Part shown: piece by piece, positions 14,776-20,645 of the stretch
Layout: the number at the start of each line of letters is the position of its first letter
How positions within the stretch are numbered: position 1 is the first letter of the stretch
DNA from: a virus
Taxonomy: Duplodnaviria > Heunggongvirae > Uroviricota > Caudoviricetes
Strand: one strand, 5' to 3'
Length of the DNA: 35,061 bases
Virus record (IMG/VR): IMGVR_UViG_2654587570_000013
Location: 1 to 35,061 of that record
Notes under the pieces: model-generated
The model's database searches: none
Seen by the model: only the letters and a program-made list of their open reading frames with translations
What the model was told of the DNA's origin: nothing
Translations under genes and position numbers: made by a program

Positions 14776-14830
14776 TCTTGTTTCCTCTTAAGTTAATTAG
14801 ATATGTTTATTTAGAATTGGAAACAAAAAA

Positions 14831-14848
14831 GCCACCCCGAAGGATGGC
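14831..14848 (-). terminator. hairpin terminator/attenuator after the tail tube gene
   Basis: On the minus strand GCCAUCC-UUCG-GGGUGGC (UUCG tetraloop) followed by a T-run. Confidence 0.45.
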
Positions 14849-14857
14849 TAGATAATA

Positions 14858-15328
14858 TTAGACTTTCTGGAAAACAGCTTGTTTGACCGGAGCACCATCT
14901 ACTACAAAGGTGAAGGTACGGCCTACTACAGCATCCTCACCACCAGTCATGGTAGTTTTAGACAGGAAGCCGTTATAAGCGATATGTACACCAGATTTTT
15001 TCGTAGCATCGATGTAGTAAGCAATTTTAAGCTGTACGCGCTTACCGTCTTCGGTTGCTTTAATCAGTTTTTCGTGTACTTCGTTACCCGGCATGTAGTT
15101 GATCGAAAGTTCGATATCCGGTACAGACATACGACCAACCAGCTTACGGTTATACGGACCACCGAAGTTAGGAACATCGATAGTAGAACGTTCTACACCA
15201 GTTTCCGGGAAAGCCGCACATTCTGGAATTTCCAGATAGCTTTCACTGTCAAGATCGGTGTTAGTTACTTCTTCATGCAGAAACAGACCAACGAGGCCAC
15301 CAGAAAAAATATCAAATTTAGTAGTCAT
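14858..15328 (-). CDS. major tail tube protein (lambda V N-domain-like)
   Basis: 156 aa; INYMPGNEVHEKLIKATEDGKRVQLKIAY resembles the conserved lambda V segment as recalled (WMPGE...ALLAWFNEGD...YKIRF); very strong optimal-codon bias typical of an abundant structural protein; terminator hairpin downstream. Confidence 0.6.
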   Translation of the reverse strand: MTTKFDIFSGGLVGLFLHEEVTNTDLDSESYLEIPECAAFPETGVERSTIDVPNFGGPYNRKLVGRMSVPDIELSINYMPGNEVHEKLIKATEDGKRVQLKIAYYIDATKKSGVHIAYNGFLSKTTMTGGEDAVVGRTFTFVVDGAPVKQAVFQKV

Positions 15329-15382: not shown

Positions 15383-15685
15383 TTAGCGGTTGCTCAAACG
15401 TCTATAACGAAGATGAGCGATCCCCCTATTTGTGCTAACGGTAATTACCGCCCCTTGCGGTGCAATACAAGAATGAATCTGTCCCCAATCATGACCCTTA
15501 TGGCTTCCAGAAACACACAAACCATGAATAAGCAATTCAGAGTCACCACCGCCACCACCGGAAGAATGAGCACAGAATGAAATAGTCCCGAAAGCGTCGG
15601 CTGTCCAACCGTTAGGAATATCAAACCATCCCTGATTTGCTTTACCCGCCCTATTCCCCAAAGCGCCATCTACCCAAAATGCCAT
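15383..15685 (-). CDS. small Gly/Trp/His-rich protein, paralogue 1 of 3 (unknown function)
   Basis: 100 aa; shares WFDIPNGW, a Gly-rich segment, D-SEL--GL and a C-terminal aromatic-basic tail with the two adjacent ORFs. Confidence 0.55.
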   Translation of the reverse strand: MAFWVDGALGNRAGKANQGWFDIPNGWTADAFGTISFCAHSSGGGGGDSELLIHGLCVSGSHKGHDWGQIHSCIAPQGAVITVSTNRGIAHLRYRRLSNR

Positions 15686-15990
15686 TAGTGCATTCTCCTG
15701 AATTTAAAATAATGCAAGCTACCTTTACCCAATGTAAAGCTAACGGTAGCACCAGCGCCAACTAAAGAACTAGCGCCCCAACTCCCGGCATCAGCCGCAT
15801 GATGACCCGATTCAATCAATCCATTTACGACCAATTCAGAATCAAGATCACCAGCACCGTTAATGGCTTCCATATGAGCAAAAACAATTCCGCATGAATC
15901 AGTAACCCAGCCGTTGGGGATATCAAAATATCCACCATTAGCCCAAATACTAATAGCGTTTGACATTCTTTGATTTATCCATCCAGCCAT
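15685..15990 (-). CDS. small Gly/Trp/His-rich protein, paralogue 2 of 3
   Basis: 101 aa; YFDIPNGW motif; its stop overlaps the start of paralogue 1 (TAATG). Confidence 0.55.
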   Translation of the reverse strand: MAGWINQRMSNAISIWANGGYFDIPNGWVTDSCGIVFAHMEAINGAGDLDSELVVNGLIESGHHAADAGSWGASSLVGAGATVSFTLGKGSLHYFKFRRMH

Positions 15991-15992
15991 AA

Positions 15993-16289
15993 TTAAAACT
16001 CCATGAATTTAAAATATTCAACACCACCTTCACCCCCTAAACCAAAGGAGACGGTGCAGCCAGCAGGAACAAACGAATTTATAGTAGATCCCCAATTGGT
16101 CCCACCACGACGACGAGCAACGGTCAAACCATCTACGTTAATATGTGCATCAGACCACCCACCACCAGCATTATGACGCATTACAGCGACACCAGCACGA
16201 GCAGTACCATAGCCGTTAGGAATATCAAATACATGCCATTTTAAAGCATCGATTTTAGTATTAATTTCGCTACTTACCCAATATCCCAT
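15993..16289 (-). CDS. small Gly/Trp/His-rich protein, paralogue 3 of 3
   Basis: 98 aa; VFDIPNGY motif; 2-nt gap to paralogue 2. Confidence 0.55.
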   Translation of the reverse strand: MGYWVSSEINTKIDALKWHVFDIPNGYGTARAGVAVMRHNAGGGWSDAHINVDGLTVARRRGGTNWGSTINSFVPAGCTVSFGLGGEGGVEYFKFMEF

Positions 16290-16327
16290 ATAAGAATCCT
16301 TAGCGGAGATTTCTCCCCGCTTTCCAA

Positions 16328-19300
16328 TTACCCTAATTTAGCTTCAATTGCAGCAAGACGTTCACGAAGAAGTTTATTTTCTTCGCTCATTTCTTGGACC
16401 GCTTTAATTAAAAGCGCGTTCACTGCGGAGTTTGAAATTGTTAAAATTTCTTCTGGGTTATCAAAACCACCAATTTTTGCGGTTTTAACAGCTTCCGGTA
16501 ATACCTCTTGTAAATCCTGTGCGATAATACCAATCTCATGACCTATAACTTCTCGGTCATTAAGAGATTTAACTTTATCGTAGGTTTTAACTTTGAGTTT
16601 ATTTACCTTATCCACCGCATTTTCTTCGTAATCTTCAACATTAATTTTCAGACGACGATCGGAACGAATATAAACATCGTTAAAGTTACCATTACCAGGA
16701 CAGTAAAAAGTACCATCATGATGGAACTCGAATACAGCTTGAGGGTGACCAGCCGCTGGCGATGCCTCCGCAGATCCAACACGAATAATTGCTTGCCCCC
16801 AATTTTGAGGAACACGACGCATACCAAAATCGACGGCAGTTGTATACCCTTGATTGGTGATTAAACTTCTTCCTTTGATAATCGGATAATAACAGTCCGG
16901 TGAAACATAGCCATGATCGACAAATATTGGCGCTTCTAAGCCCCATTGATCACCCCAACCTCCAGATTGGCTAGCAGTCCAACGTTCACCATGAACATAG
17001 AATCGAACGTTATTGACATGAGTCATTTCGACACCTTTTGGACTTAGCGCGATATCCCCCGCGTTTGTAATATTGATAGCAGCATTAGTAGCATAGCTAT
17101 AGAACGCTAATCCATTATCAGCACCACCTTTACCGATATACCAGTTGTTATTATCAGCACAAGTACCCAACAAATATATCGACGAATCGCCCGTTTCGGC
17201 ATTCATGATGATTGCGTCAGAACCACGATTAACTTTAAGTTTCCCGAAGAAGGTGTTTTTAATGGTATTATCACCCAATCGTTCAAATTCGGCTAAAAAT
17301 CCTTTTGAGTCACGAAGGCTTAAAACGTTATTTCGACCTGTATTGCTTGCCCCCCAATGGACGAGTTCCATATAGTCCATAGATTGACGAGAACCAGCTT
17401 TAAAGAAAAGATTGTCCTCAAGACGAGTGCTACCATCAATTCCAAGATGCAAACAGCGTGCGGTCGCTGTGCCACCTAGATCTAATCCACCACCAGCAAA
17501 ATCATAACTAAATGGTCTACGGCTATTCCACCCACCGAAAGAATCACCGTGATCTGTGGAAAGAATATGGAAGCTAGTTCCATCATTACGGAACATCAAA
17601 CCATAATTACCACCTTTAACAGCCAAACGAGCATTTTCAGATAATGCAACTTCGCTATTCATTACAATTTTCTGGCCTTTACCACCAGTAATATGTAATT
17701 CACCATCTTCAATCAGGTTTATCGAGTTTTGACCGTTATCATTCCACCAAATAAAATCTTTGGTTGTTCCATCACCGAAGCCAAACCAGCCATTACGAAC
17801 ATCTTGTCCAGTGCGATAATCCATGAAATTAAAATGGCTTGATTCGTTTGGTCCTCGACGAATATCAATACCAGAATTTCCACCAACACCACCATCCAAT
17901 GTTAATCTCTTGACATGTAACCCGGTTGTTGCTGTCAGCAATAATTCCTGATTTGTATCTTCGTATCCAGTAGCAAGACGATATGCGTTATCATCAACTG
18001 TCTCATGCCAGATAGTGGCAGGAGCAGAACTACGGAAGCGACGCAACATTTTCTTAGCATTTGTTTGCTGTTCGTTCAAATGCTCAATGTCATATTGGCC
18101 TTGATGGTTTCCAGCAAAATTTAACGTTCCACGGTTGCTAAAGTTATTGAACGATGAAATGTTAAGAGCATCAAAAATTTCATCTGCAACAGGTTTTTCA
18201 CCGCCCAGGTATTCAGGAGTATCCAACAGGTTTAAAGAAACACCACCGGAAGAAACTTGATATTCTGCTAAAACAAATCCTGTATGTGCACCATAGTAAG
18301 CGTAAAGATCATAATTGTCGCCATCGGTTGGAATAGCGCAAAAATGTTGTTCATAATGCCAAATAGTATAATACGCATTGAATACAACACCTTTCGGGCT
18401 ATTGTTGCCGCATCGAATCACCAATTCGATAATATTGGCTTGTCCATTCATCCCGACGTTATAACCGTTACCACCAACTAAGCGGATCTTAGCACTACGA
18501 CCGTGTTGCTGTGGCATTGTCAAAGTGCCTAGTTTAAACCAACCACCCTCGATCCCAAAATTAAGCGTCTTCTGGAACAGTCGGTCAATTTCTGCTTTCG
18601 AATATGCGCCAATTTCGGCAGGAGTAGGTTTATCACCTTCATGATACATGCGGTGAGAATATGCCAAATGACCCAATTCATCATAGCCGTATGTTCTTAC
18701 CGTATGAACCGGATTAGACCCATAAGTGAACTCAAAGCCACGAGCATGATTAACACCAGATGGATGCGGAACATGCAAGATCATTGCAATATGACCCGCC
18801 AGGTCATTCATGCGGAATGCACCAAAGTAATCAAGATTACGCGCATTTGGATCATCAAAATAGTTTGCGGTCTTAGACAGCAAATAACCATCAGTATAAG
18901 TGTTTACGTGTTTTTTGATGTACTTGCCATCAGCAGATCCATCGGCTGCATCAATACGGCTTTCTAAGCGTGCCAATTCAGAATCAGTGTAAGACTTGTT
19001 ATTGTCAACTTTGCTATGAATTGCTGTATTTTTGGCTTCAACATCACGGGTTAATGCTGCGACGTTATCCGCTGCCTCTTGCTTATTGGCTGCAATCACA
19101 CCAGTAAGGTTATTGTAGGTGTCAGTTAACTGATTTTCCGCATAGACTTTATTTGCTGCGATAGTGCGGTCAGTTTCTGTCTTAATCAGATCAACTTTGT
19201 CATTGATTGCTTTGTCATTACTTGCGATTGTCGCGTCGGTACGGGATTTAATATCATCAACTTTTTTATTGATGCGGGTATCCAGTTCCTGGGTTGCTAC

Positions 19301-19738
19301 AGCAGCCGCATTTTTATTAGCGTTGATGGTATCCGACAATTCAGCTTTAACACCAGCAAGGTCGGAAGCAGCTTTATTTTTATTGGCCTCGATTGTCGCG
19401 TCGGTTTCGCGTTTAATTACATCAACTTTATTGTTAATTTCTGCGTGATTTGCTGCGATGGTTGCATCAGTAGTTTGTTTAATTTCATCTACTTTAGCGT
19501 GAATATTGCGGTCATTTACTGCAATTGTGCTATCCAGTTCTTGTTTGTTAGCATCAACTTTAGATTCTAGTGCCGCGTGAGTTTCAGGAGAAACAGAGAT
19601 TTGAACTACTTCATGATCTCGGTCTTTGGTAAAAATAACATGGTCTTTAAGGTTGATTGCTACCTCACCGACCTGTAATTGTTCCGGCGTTGGTTTTTTG
19701 CCAGAAACATTTGTTCGTTTAAATTGGATCGACTGCAT
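16328..19738 (-). CDS. tail fibre/tailspike with C-terminal intramolecular chaperone (peptidase S74-type) domain
   Basis: 1136 aa; N-terminal array of roughly 22-aa shaft repeats (KVDxIKxxTDATIxAN); C-terminal ~110 aa has the S-DxRxK autoproteolysis signature (YIRS/DRRLK) and a terminal coiled coil, as in T5 L-shaped fibre and K1F endosialidase chaperone domains. Confidence 0.85.
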   Translation of the reverse strand: MQSIQFKRTNVSGKKPTPEQLQVGEVAINLKDHVIFTKDRDHEVVQISVSPETHAALESKVDANKQELDSTIAVNDRNIHAKVDEIKQTTDATIAANHAEINNKVDVIKRETDATIEANKNKAASDLAGVKAELSDTINANKNAAAVATQELDTRINKKVDDIKSRTDATIASNDKAINDKVDLIKTETDRTIAANKVYAENQLTDTYNNLTGVIAANKQEAADNVAALTRDVEAKNTAIHSKVDNNKSYTDSELARLESRIDAADGSADGKYIKKHVNTYTDGYLLSKTANYFDDPNARNLDYFGAFRMNDLAGHIAMILHVPHPSGVNHARGFEFTYGSNPVHTVRTYGYDELGHLAYSHRMYHEGDKPTPAEIGAYSKAEIDRLFQKTLNFGIEGGWFKLGTLTMPQQHGRSAKIRLVGGNGYNVGMNGQANIIELVIRCGNNSPKGVVFNAYYTIWHYEQHFCAIPTDGDNYDLYAYYGAHTGFVLAEYQVSSGGVSLNLLDTPEYLGGEKPVADEIFDALNISSFNNFSNRGTLNFAGNHQGQYDIEHLNEQQTNAKKMLRRFRSSAPATIWHETVDDNAYRLATGYEDTNQELLLTATTGLHVKRLTLDGGVGGNSGIDIRRGPNESSHFNFMDYRTGQDVRNGWFGFGDGTTKDFIWWNDNGQNSINLIEDGELHITGGKGQKIVMNSEVALSENARLAVKGGNYGLMFRNDGTSFHILSTDHGDSFGGWNSRRPFSYDFAGGGLDLGGTATARCLHLGIDGSTRLEDNLFFKAGSRQSMDYMELVHWGASNTGRNNVLSLRDSKGFLAEFERLGDNTIKNTFFGKLKVNRGSDAIIMNAETGDSSIYLLGTCADNNNWYIGKGGADNGLAFYSYATNAAINITNAGDIALSPKGVEMTHVNNVRFYVHGERWTASQSGGWGDQWGLEAPIFVDHGYVSPDCYYPIIKGRSLITNQGYTTAVDFGMRRVPQNWGQAIIRVGSAEASPAAGHPQAVFEFHHDGTFYCPGNGNFNDVYIRSDRRLKINVEDYEENAVDKVNKLKVKTYDKVKSLNDREVIGHEIGIIAQDLQEVLPEAVKTAKIGGFDNPEEILTISNSAVNALLIKAVQEMSEENKLLRERLAAIEAKLG

Positions 19739-19811: not shown

Positions 19812-20645
19812 TCAGTATTCCCCGAAGTCGATCCGGTCATGGATAGAAACGGCTTCAATCTCGGCTGGTGTCGGTTTTTCTTCTGTGGAATACACTTTCA
19901 CCCATCCAGAATTACCGTCTTTCTGGACTGTGCGAACTCGTAAACGTGGTGCGCCGGAAGCGGTGCAAGTTAATTGCCATCCACCATCTTCATTAGGTTG
20001 AACGTGAATTAGTGAAGTATCAGCACTAAATGGATTAGATACGCTCGATCCCTGATAAGTTACGAAACGGTTTCCGGCTAATGCTTCGCTATCAATCGGA
20101 CCTATGAATGGGCTAACGCCTGAACCTACGCCATAATCCCCTTGTCGCAGAATTTTTCCCTCGGTCGCGATACCCCTTGCAAGAATCCCGCCATCTGGTT
20201 CAAGTTTAAATTCCAGTGTTACAGCTTTGTTATCTGCGCCACGGGTTTTATGTGATGTGACGTAAGCATCGAATATACAAAAGTACCCTGTGTTAGCAGC
20301 ACTATAGCCAGAGTTCACAACATAGAACATACGGAAGCGTAAAGGTGTTTTATCCTCTACCGCTTTCATCAACATTGCTTGATGTTCGTCATCCAGAACA
20401 CGGTTTAACGTGAGTGTTGTCGGTTCCAGTTTACGATAACCAGCAAGTTTCCCCGTAGCGTCCTGGTCATACTCTTCTAACGTCTGGATCTCTGTGGATT
20501 CGGTTATCGTCGGAAATGCTGCGATGTTCTCGATAGGACTAAAGCTAGGATCGAAAAAGTCCGGCTGGTTATCCACCATAGTAGACACGGAGACTTCAAC
20601 ATGCGACCCCGTGAAAATGTCTAAGTTATCTTGTGTAATATTCAT
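19812..20645 (-). CDS. tail tube-fold protein with C-terminal extra domain (lambda V-like major tail protein or tail terminator)
   Basis: 277 aa; TLTLNRVLDDEHQAMLMKAVEDKTPLRFRMF resembles the same V-like segment; C-terminal ~100 aa beta-rich domain carrying a KPTPAEI motif also present in the fibre. Confidence 0.5.
   Translation of the reverse strand: MNITQDNLDIFTGSHVEVSVSTMVDNQPDFFDPSFSPIENIAAFPTITESTEIQTLEEYDQDATGKLAGYRKLEPTTLTLNRVLDDEHQAMLMKAVEDKTPLRFRMFYVVNSGYSAANTGYFCIFDAYVTSHKTRGADNKAVTLEFKLEPDGGILARGIATEGKILRQGDYGVGSGVSPFIGPIDSEALAGNRFVTYQGSSVSNPFSADTSLIHVQPNEDGGWQLTCTASGAPRLRVRTVQKDGNSGWVKVYSTEEKPTPAEIEAVSIHDRIDFGEY

What the first reader, a model, noticed from the sequence alone, without database searches (positions are those of the whole stretch)
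15383..16289. Three tandem paralogous ~100-aa genes embedded in the tail module next to the fibre gene
Three consecutive, translationally coupled ORFs of 98-101 aa share a conserved core: (W/Y/V)FDIPNG(W/Y), a Gly-rich loop, D-SEL--GL and an aromatic-basic C-terminus. They have diverged strongly at the nucleotide level, so the triplication is old and maintained. They lie between the self-cleaving tail fibre and the tail tube gene, which is not a position in the canonical lambda-like gene order. Possible roles are collar or fibre-anchoring subunits, small adhesin or lectin modules, or fibre assembly factors. I do not recognise the family.
Basis: partly seen in the sequence, partly recalled or inferred. 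Interest (0 to 1): 0.7.

Follow-up and report, generated by a model that had tools for sequence, protein, structure and literature searches.

The report
Three-gene cap for self-cleaving tail fibres
Three small, anciently triplicated phage genes of an undescribed family always follow a self-cleaving tail-fibre gene and sit where some T4-like phages carry the gp38 fibre-tip adhesin, so they most likely form a three-part cap on the fibre tip.

Summary
Three translationally coupled genes on the minus strand (A 16289-15993, B 15990-15685, C 15685-15383; 98/101/100 aa) are paralogues (BLASTP E 1e-11 to 6e-9). All three are under purifying selection (dN/dS 0.03-0.24). They match nothing in Pfam, PHROGs, NCBIfam or PDB sequences.

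The informative context is the fibre gene upstream, not the tail tube gene downstream. In every locus found, exactly three genes in the order A-B-C directly follow a fibre that ends in a Peptidase_S74 self-cleaving chaperone. These loci are E. coli and Salmonella siphovirus prophages, T4-like Krischvirus phages and a T7-like fibre contig.

In Krischvirus the trio fills the slot next to gp37 where some relatives carry the gp38 adhesin. G37-3 and G2248 have the trio and no detectable gp38. KFS-EC has gp38 elsewhere, and its trio is a deleted, frameshifted remnant.

AlphaFold models of A and B show a low-confidence N-terminal helix with a near-invariant Trp4, followed by a compact jelly-roll. The jelly-roll most resembles the trimeric C1q/TNF knobs.

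Best reading (about 0.45): an A:B:C heterotrimeric cap docks on the fibre end exposed by self-cleavage. Heterotrimer formation, virion presence and receptor binding are inferred, not shown. An assembly-factor role is not excluded.

The parts
15993..16289 (-). Paralogue A (98 aa); always the first gene of the trio; C-terminus ...YFKFMEF
   Evidence: ORF. AF2 model: pLDDT 82, N-terminal helix 2-12 plus beta-sandwich. Foldseek against PDB gives TWEAK, C1q chain C, C1QL, TNF and cerebellin as best hits. Position-1 proteins form one clade.
15685..15990 (-). Paralogue B (101 aa); always second; carries a ~30-aa N-terminal extension in the Salmonella and T7-like versions
15383..15685 (-). Paralogue C (100 aa); always third; the most conserved of the three; start overlaps the B stop by 1 nt
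   Evidence: ORF; BLASTP to B E 2e-14. Position-3 proteins cluster together except L021_3. dN/dS 0.08-0.23.
16328..19738 (-). Tail fibre (1136 aa): prophage-specific N-terminal shaft, exchangeable distal cassette and C-terminal self-cleaving chaperone; the proposed partner of the trio
   Evidence: Pfam Gp34_trimer at residues 644-745 and Peptidase_S74 at 1026-1085. PHROG 'long tail fiber protein distal subunit', E 1.7e-129. The distal part is 78-94% nt identical to Krischvirus and other T4-like gp37 genes.
16331..16663 (-). Intramolecular chaperone (residues 1026-1136), predicted to be released by autocleavage after R1025
   Evidence: The Pfam S74 match starts at S1026. The motif DVYIR^SDRRLK is the one assigned as the cleavage site in T2-like gp37 (PMC7917993).
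16664..16678 (-). D-V-Y-I-R (residues 1021-1025): the new C-terminus after cleavage and the proposed docking end for the trio
   Evidence: The last 120 mature residues are 94% identical to MIZ4 gp37 and 84% to DalCa gp37, both of which are followed by a T2-type gp38. The docking role of this end for gp38 is taken from PMC7917993 and PMC6851490.
16302..16321 (-). Stable hairpin between the fibre stop codon and the Shine-Dalgarno of A; it has no U-tract and may dampen or stabilise expression of the trio
   Evidence: MFE -14.7 kcal/mol, z -2.8 against shuffles. The sequence is identical in KFS-EC. A terminator is annotated at the same place in G2248.

Best explanation
A, B and C are three subunits of one accessory complex of the fibre's distal (C-terminal) end. 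The proposed sequence of events is as follows. The fibre trimerises with the help of its own C-terminal S74 chaperone. The chaperone then cuts itself off after ...DVYIR. This exposes the three-fold-symmetric end that docks the gp38 adhesin in T2/S16-like phages. In this phage one copy each of A, B and C assembles into a pseudo-three-fold knob of C1q/TNF-like jelly-rolls. The knob plugs into that end through its three N-terminal, Trp4-bearing helices. This would mirror the three Trp-tipped helices that monomeric gp38 supplies from a single chain. The knob would then be the outermost part of the fibre. It could cap the hydrophobic end and probably contacts the cell surface. Shown here: paralogy, selection, strict linkage to S74 fibres, the complementary pattern with gp38 in Krischvirus, and the predicted fold. 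Inferred: heterotrimer formation, docking through the Trp helices, presence in the virion and receptor binding.
For: (1) Linkage. Every locus recovered has an S74-terminated fibre directly upstream and exactly three paralogues. These include 10+ E. coli prophage contigs, two Salmonella prophages and three Krischvirus myoviruses. They also include a T7-type fibre carrying the Phage_T7_tail domain and two further metagenomic lineages. The fibres share only their C-terminal end.

(2) Fixed triplet. Positions 1 and 2 each form one clade and position 3 nearly does. A census of 77 non-redundant family members gives 27 A, 26 B and 24 C. The genes are tightly coupled. All are under purifying selection.

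(3) Relation to gp38. In kvi, MIZ4 and DalCa the gene directly after gp37 is the ~260-aa T2-type gp38. In G37-3, G2248 and UPWr_E1 the trio sits in that slot. G37-3 and G2248 show no gp38 at megablast level. KFS-EC has gp38 at a remote locus, and its trio is an A/C deletion fusion with a frameshift. The window fibre's mature end is 94% identical to the MIZ4 gp37 end, which is followed by a gp38 gene. The window itself encodes no gp38.

(5) Docking element. Each paralogue has an N-terminal helix with low pLDDT, as expected of a segment that orders on binding. Trp4 is present in 71 of 75 sequences. S16 gp38 docks by three Trp residues on three helices that occupy three symmetry-equivalent pockets of gp37 (PMC6851490).
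Against: The 1:1:1 complex therefore rests on comparative arguments only.

The trio shows no sequence or profile similarity to gp38 (hhalign probability 0.2). A PSSM test of the Trp-helix resemblance was not significant (p 0.04-0.18).

Nearly identical trios (96-98%) accompany at least three unrelated mature fibre tips. Among sister prophages the swapped cassette is the fibre's distal 250-350 aa, not the trio. The trio is therefore unlikely to be the main specificity determinant. Any docking must use only the shared extreme end.

Absence of gp38 in G37-3 and G2248 was checked only by megablast. UPWr_E1 was not resolved.

There are no virion proteomics or genetics for any trio-bearing phage.
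Confidence: 0.45

Rival explanations
1. The trio are fibre assembly or maturation factors that are not part of the virion. They would act like T4 gp38/gp57A or lambda/Mu Tfa, helping folding, trimerisation, self-cleavage or removal of the released chaperone domain.
For: Small genes directly downstream of a fibre gene are the classical place for fibre chaperones. The trio is inherited as a block with the conserved chaperone domain while the mature distal domain is swapped. It is indifferent to which mature tip type it accompanies. T2-type gp38, its positional counterpart, was long annotated as an 'assembly catalyst'.
Against: The fibre already carries its own intramolecular chaperone. There is no similarity to any known Tfa, gp38 or gp57A family. 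The predicted fold is a jelly-roll knob typical of fibre ends, not a chaperone fold. KFS-EC has a 96%-identical tip and a 98%-identical chaperone domain but only a broken trio. A need for exactly three conserved paralogues is hard to explain for a chaperone.
Confidence: 0.22
2. Each paralogue forms its own homotrimeric knob (A3, B3, C3). These alternative caps would load onto different fibres of one particle, giving a multivalent virion with a broadened host range.
For: The C1q/TNF-like fold commonly forms homotrimers. The A and B alleles differ by 22-26% between phages while C is conserved. That pattern could reflect independent binding specificities.
Against: The copy number is exactly three, in the same order, in all lineages. 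The A:B:C census is balanced at 27:26:24. Alternative caps would be expected to vary in number and to be lost singly. The one reported case of three tandem tail paralogues forms a heterotrimer (virophage DSLV2, PMC12724248).
Confidence: 0.12
3. The trio is cargo unrelated to fibre function, for example an anti-defence or host-manipulation module. It would simply ride in the recombination-prone slot downstream of fibre genes.
For: The slot between gp37 and Dc5/holin in Krischvirus is variable: empty in RB49, gp38 in kvi and MIZ4, the trio in G37-3. KFS-EC is viable with a broken trio.
Against: The same three genes follow S74 fibres in siphovirus, myovirus and podovirus-type contexts whose other genes differ. 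They are never seen elsewhere: only 19 hits among 1.84 billion representative proteins, four of them judged spurious. The fold is fibre-knob-like. The proteins lack hydrophobic N-termini or transmembrane segments (sequences).
Confidence: 0.08

Closest known systems
T2/S16-type gp38 long-tail-fibre tip adhesin (PDB 6F45)
   Same: The gene lies directly downstream of a gp37-type fibre that ends in a self-cleaving S74 chaperone. In Krischvirus the two occupy the same slot and show a complementary pattern. The window fibre ends in the same DVYIR docking end. Both offer Trp-bearing N-terminal helices, three in one gp38 chain against one in each of three chains.
   Different: There is no detectable homology. 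gp38 is a single ~260-aa chain with a polyglycine-II sandwich and hypervariable loops. The trio is three ~100-aa jelly-roll proteins. gp38 is the hypervariable specificity element, whereas the trio is conserved while the fibre's distal domain is swapped.
C1q/TNF superfamily knobs (complement C1q head, collagen VIII/X NC1, BclA, C1q-like ends of phage fibres)
   Same: These are the best structural matches for both modelled paralogues. They are trimeric knobs at the end of a trimeric stalk. From general knowledge, the C1q head is itself a heterotrimer of three paralogous chains A, B and C.
   Different: The trio core is only ~80 residues against ~130, and the scores are moderate. There is no Pfam C1q match. 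The trio proteins are free-standing rather than the covalent C-terminus of the stalk chain. Trimerisation was not tested.
Tripartite tail proteins of virophage DSLV2 (PMC12724248)
   Same: Three consecutive paralogous tail genes are conserved as a set with position-specific clades. That paper reports a 1:1:1 heterotrimeric receptor-binding complex.
   Different: Those proteins resemble the T4 gp37 needle tip and form the fibre itself. They do not cap another protein and have no S74 partner.
Tail fibre assembly chaperones (T4 gp38, gp57A, lambda/Mu Tfa)
   Same: Small genes immediately downstream of a fibre gene.
   Different: There is no sequence match in Pfam, PHROGs or NCBIfam, and the predicted fold is different. 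The partner fibre already has an intramolecular chaperone.

Membership tests
T2/S16-type gp38 adhesin | Sequence or profile homology to gp38 (conserved N-terminal attachment domain) | tested here: not met
   hhalign of the trio family against a gp38 alignment gives probability 0.2, E 0.3. No PHROG or Pfam adhesin hit.
T2/S16-type gp38 adhesin | Polyglycine-II sandwich with about ten glycine-rich motifs flanking hypervariable loops | tested here: not met
   The AF2 models are ordinary beta-sandwiches. Each paralogue has only one short Gly run.
T2/S16-type gp38 adhesin | Encoded next to a gp37-type fibre whose S74 chaperone is cleaved to expose the docking end | tested here: met
   S74 at residues 1026-1085 with the DVYIR^SD motif. 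The trio is in the slot directly after gp37 in G37-3, G2248 and UPWr_E1. Cleavage itself is inferred from PMC7917993.
T2/S16-type gp38 adhesin | Docks through three conserved Trp residues on three helices into three symmetric gp37 pockets | tested here: inconclusive
   Each paralogue has a predicted N-terminal helix, and Trp4 is present in 71 of 75 sequences. Motif similarity to the gp38 Trp helices is not significant (p 0.04-0.18). No complex model could be made.
T2/S16-type gp38 adhesin | Remains on the virion and binds the host receptor | not testable with these tools
   Needs virion proteomics and adsorption assays. None was found in the literature searches.
C1q/TNF superfamily | Jelly-roll fold of the gC1q/THD type | tested here: inconclusive
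C1q/TNF superfamily | Sequence signature (Pfam C1q PF00386 or TNF PF00229) | tested here: not met
   No Pfam hit at E up to 1.
C1q/TNF superfamily | Assembles as a trimer around a three-fold axis | not testable with these tools
The only support is the fixed triplet of orthogroups.
Tail fibre assembly chaperones (T4 gp38 / Tfa / gp57A) | Homology to a known chaperone family | tested here: not met
   No hit in Pfam, PHROGs or NCBIfam or in PDB sequences.
Tail fibre assembly chaperones (T4 gp38 / Tfa / gp57A) | Required for fibre folding and absent from the mature virion | not testable with these tools
   Indirect only: KFS-EC keeps a 96%-identical tip and a 98%-identical chaperone domain with a broken trio.

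The most novel reading that the evidence does not exclude
An undescribed protein family supplies a symmetry-matched alternative to gp38. Three tandem paralogues would build a heterotrimeric C1q-like knob. The knob would plug one Trp-tipped helix per subunit into the three equivalent pockets exposed when an S74 chaperone cleaves itself off. The module would be portable between siphovirus, myovirus and podovirus fibres.
Probability: 0.3. Interest if true: 0.8.

Novelty: new variant of a known kind. Interest (0 to 1): 0.68.

Why it matters
Fibre-tip adhesins decide which bacteria a phage can attack, and they are the parts engineered to retarget therapeutic phages. The only well-described detachable tip on S74-matured fibres is gp38, a monomer that sits on a trimer despite the symmetry mismatch.

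A second, unrelated solution built from three paralogous subunits would have several consequences:
- It would explain how T4-like phages without detectable gp38 (G37-3, G2248), and a whole prophage lineage with a T2-type fibre end, complete their fibres.
- It would name a family now annotated only as 'hypothetical protein' in E. coli and Salmonella genomes.
- It would provide a small module that already works on three tail types.
- It would give a prokaryotic-virus parallel to the heterotrimeric C1q head.

If the trio proves to be an assembly factor instead, it would still be a new class acting on fibres that already carry their own chaperone.

Tried and rejected
- **Family libraries.** Pfam, PHROGs and NCBIfam scans and a PDB sequence search gave nothing usable. 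The weak CAF17 and PHROG tail hits are below threshold, and the 'Pizza' designer proteins are repeat artefacts.
- **Homology to gp38.** Rejected by hhalign.
- **Giant proteins in the representative search.** P0043 is an ankyrin-repeat protein and P0054 a repetitive adhesin-like protein. Both reached significance only by summing many weak repeat matches. P0050 and P0052 were not inspected; I judged them spurious from their size (2715 and 3591 aa) and repeat-type or short matches. No protein that fuses this domain to a fibre was found.
- **Heterotrimer model.** MAFFT stacked all homologues onto the middle segment of a linked A-B-C construct. I did not try to get round that.
- **Trp-helix motif shared with gp38.** A PSSM test against 571 background Trp windows was not significant. 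It is kept only as a structural analogy.
- **Match between trio alleles and fibre tip types.** None was found. Tip type II occurs with both allele sets, and allele set 1 occurs with tip types I and II. This rules out tip-type-specific docking.
- **Correlation with the chaperone's C-terminal tail.** The coiled-coil-like ending is the general S74 form, also present in RB49, and is not specific to the trio.
- **Collar or N-terminal anchoring role.** Rejected because the partner fibres have unrelated N-termini.
- **IMG/VR scan.** It added only close E. coli prophage relatives.
- **gp38 in UPWr_E1.** The check was inconclusive.

Full report
**Observation**

The three ORFs are real but lie on the minus strand: A 16289..15993 (98 aa), B 15990..15685 (101 aa) and C 15685..15383 (100 aa). 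A and B are 2 nt apart. B and C overlap by one base (TAATG). Each has its own Shine-Dalgarno sequence.

Pairwise BLASTP gives E 1e-11 (A-B, 41% identity), 2e-14 (B-C, 36%) and 6e-9 (A-C, 24%). The alignment shows the F-D-I-P-N-G-(W/Y) motif, a Gly-rich loop and an aromatic C-terminal strand. The D-SEL--GL element is present only in B and C. A ends in FMEF rather than a basic tail.

Upstream on the coding strand is a 1136-aa fibre with Pfam Gp34_trimer (residues 644-745) and Peptidase_S74 (residues 1026-1085). Downstream are the tail tube gene, the G/T-like chaperone genes and the tape measure gene.

**Family**

None of the three proteins matches Pfam, PHROGs or NCBIfam, and a family profile finds no solved structure by sequence. 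A word-indexed search of 5.8 billion proteins returned 35 clusters, all unnamed E. coli, Shigella or Salmonella proteins.

An exhaustive profile search of 1.84 billion representatives returned 19 hits. Fifteen of them are free-standing proteins of 97-129 aa. Two of the four giant proteins were inspected and are repeat artefacts. The other two are judged spurious from their size and match pattern. The family is therefore small, narrow and never fused to anything.

It occurs in 24 of 5,426 complete E. coli genomes, always on the chromosome and always annotated 'hypothetical protein' three times. It occurs in 4 phages among the 50,697 phage records and in 7 IMG/VR contigs.

**Context is the key result**

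The window belongs to a 40-52 kb siphovirus or prophage lineage. Its gene order is terminase, portal, protease-capsid fusion, 96-aa, 140-aa and 277-aa genes, S74 fibre, A-B-C, tube, chaperones, tape measure, distal tail protein and a J-like tip protein.

Salmonella prophages of the same design carry diverged A, B and C in the same order.

The same cassette, 96% identical in DNA, lies in the T4-like Krischvirus phage G37-3, and at ~80% identity in G2248 and UPWr_E1. There it sits directly after gp37, the distal long-tail-fibre subunit, and before Dc5 and the holin gene.

More distant versions follow three further fibres:
- a 615-aa fibre with the T7 gp17 tail-binding domain plus S74;
- S74 fibres in two other metagenomic lineages.

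Every upstream fibre ends with the (Y/F)xRSD...LK self-cleavage motif. The N-termini of these fibres are unrelated. The association is therefore with the fibre's C-terminal end.

**Always three**

In an NJ tree of 35 proteins from 12 loci, position-1 and position-2 proteins each form one clade. Position-3 proteins do too, except the most divergent one. Seventy-seven non-redundant family members split into 27 A, 26 B and 24 C. dN/dS is 0.03-0.24 for each gene at every divergence level tested. The triplication therefore predates the spread of the module, and each copy is individually maintained.

**Relation to gp38**

In Krischvirus kvi and MIZ4 and in Tequatrovirus DalCa, the gene right after gp37 is the ~260-aa T2-type gp38 'receptor-recognition' adhesin. 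Their gp37 distal parts are ~80% nt identical to the window fibre. In RB49, Phi1 and JSE the slot is empty and gp38 lies at a remote locus.

G37-3 and G2248 have only the flanks of that remote locus and no other gp38-like place in the genome at megablast sensitivity. KFS-EC has gp38 at the remote locus. Its trio is wrecked by a ~460-bp deletion that fuses A (residues 1-89) to the middle of C, plus a 1-nt frameshift.

The window fibre's last 120 mature residues are 94% identical to MIZ4 gp37. The last 45 residues differ by a single Ser-to-Cys change. The window and all trio loci nevertheless lack any gp38 homologue by tblastn. Trio and gp38 thus behave as alternatives for the same fibre end.

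**What the literature says about that end**

In S16 and T2-like phages the last ~113 residues of gp37 are an intramolecular chaperone. It cuts itself off after trimerisation (at DVYIR^SD in T2-like sequences) and exposes a hydrophobic docking surface (PMC7917993).

No paper found mentions the trio.

**Structure**

AlphaFold2 with family alignments gave confident models for B (pLDDT 86, pTM 0.72) and A (pLDDT 82). Both have an N-terminal helix (residues 2-13) of low confidence followed by a beta-sandwich with pLDDT around 90.

The scores are moderate and other small sandwiches (GOLD domains, CBMs) also appear. The statement is 'compact C1q/TNF-like jelly-roll', not membership of that superfamily.

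**Mechanism proposed**

One copy each of A, B and C would form a pseudo-three-fold knob. This is suggested by the fixed triplet, the translational coupling and a fold class that forms trimers. The three N-terminal helices each carry Trp4, which is present in 71 of 75 sequences. They would occupy the three equivalent pockets that gp38 fills from a single chain. The knob would then be the fibre's outermost element.

These steps are inference. The Trp-helix motif resemblance to gp38 is not statistically supported.

**What weakens the adhesin reading**

Trios that are 96-98% identical accompany at least three unrelated mature tip types. Among sister prophages the exchanged cassette is the fibre's distal 250-350 residues, flanked by a conserved shaft and a conserved chaperone-plus-trio block.

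The trio therefore looks like a conserved accessory rather than the main specificity element. It may be a cap that shields the exposed hydrophobic end, possibly binding a conserved surface feature. A and B do exist as two allele sets differing by 22-26%, with changes concentrated around residues 28-30, 40-55 and 64-68. Some adaptive variation is therefore possible.

**Rivals**

An assembly or maturation factor that is not in the virion remains plausible (about 0.22). The other rivals are three alternative homotrimeric caps (about 0.12) and unrelated cargo in a variable slot (about 0.08). A published precedent for three tandem tail paralogues forming a 1:1:1 receptor-binding complex exists in virophage DSLV2, with a different fold (PMC12724248).

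**Verdict**

The finding is genuine and more interesting than its position next to the tube gene suggested. It is an undescribed, ancient three-gene module that travels with self-cleaving fibres across three tail morphotypes and substitutes for gp38. I rate it a new variant of a known kind (a detachable fibre-tip accessory), with interest about 0.68. The mechanism is held at about 0.45 confidence until multimer modelling, virion proteomics and genetics are done.

Noticed in passing
window 19812-20645 (-) and 14858-15328 (-): The fibre-trio cassette is flanked by two tail-tube-like genes. The 277-aa protein (N-terminal 154 residues) and the 156-aa tube protein both match PHROG 158 'major tail protein'. 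The longer one has a ~120-aa C-terminal extension and might be the ring that anchors the side fibre.
   Followed up: partly
window 16328-17300 (-) compared with L008, L011, L012, L030, L031, L034: Sister prophages share the first ~800 fibre residues (80-100% identity) and the chaperone domain. Between these they carry unrelated distal cassettes (13-30% identity). The window's cassette is 78-94% nt identical to Krischvirus and other T4-like gp37 genes, which indicates host-range cassette exchange between temperate siphoviruses and lytic myoviruses.
   Followed up: partly
L004 4945-5268 (-) (KFS-EC gp139) and L028 242-1018 (-) (gp231): In KFS-EC the trio has decayed to a 107-aa A/C fusion, by a deletion between the Gly-rich loops of A and C plus a 1-nt insertion. 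An RB49-type gp38 sits 55 kb away, even though the gp37 tip is of the T2 type.
   Followed up: yes
L029 7657-7700 (RB49), L016/L017 2119-2901, L001 6017-6923: The slot between gp37 and Dc5/holin in Krischvirus exists in three states: empty (RB49), T2-type gp38 (kvi, MIZ4) or the trio (G37-3, G2248, UPWr_E1).
   Followed up: yes
window 16302-16321 (-): A stable 8-bp hairpin without a U-tract (-14.7 kcal/mol, z -2.8) lies between the fibre stop codon and the ribosome-binding site of A. It is identical in KFS-EC, and a terminator is annotated at the same spot in G2248. It might set the fibre-to-trio expression ratio.
   Followed up: partly
L014 7603-8001, L015 7947-8339, L021 2289-2657: In the Salmonella and T7-like versions, paralogue B carries a ~20-30-aa N-terminal extension (e.g. 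MENKFINTPVKSEEIKQAMTLAA...RIP) ahead of the conserved Trp. Its role is unknown.
   Followed up: no
L019 1375-4083: In one metagenomic lineage the trio is followed by a second large fibre-like gene (902 aa), so the module lies between two fibre genes.
   Followed up: no
L035 6001-6306: One IMG/VR prophage contig has an apparent frameshift in paralogue B. This is either a second case of decay or an assembly error.
   Followed up: no
window 14830-14849 (-): A strong intrinsic terminator (8-bp GC-rich stem followed by a T-run) lies just after the tail tube gene, ahead of the tail assembly chaperone genes.
   Followed up: no
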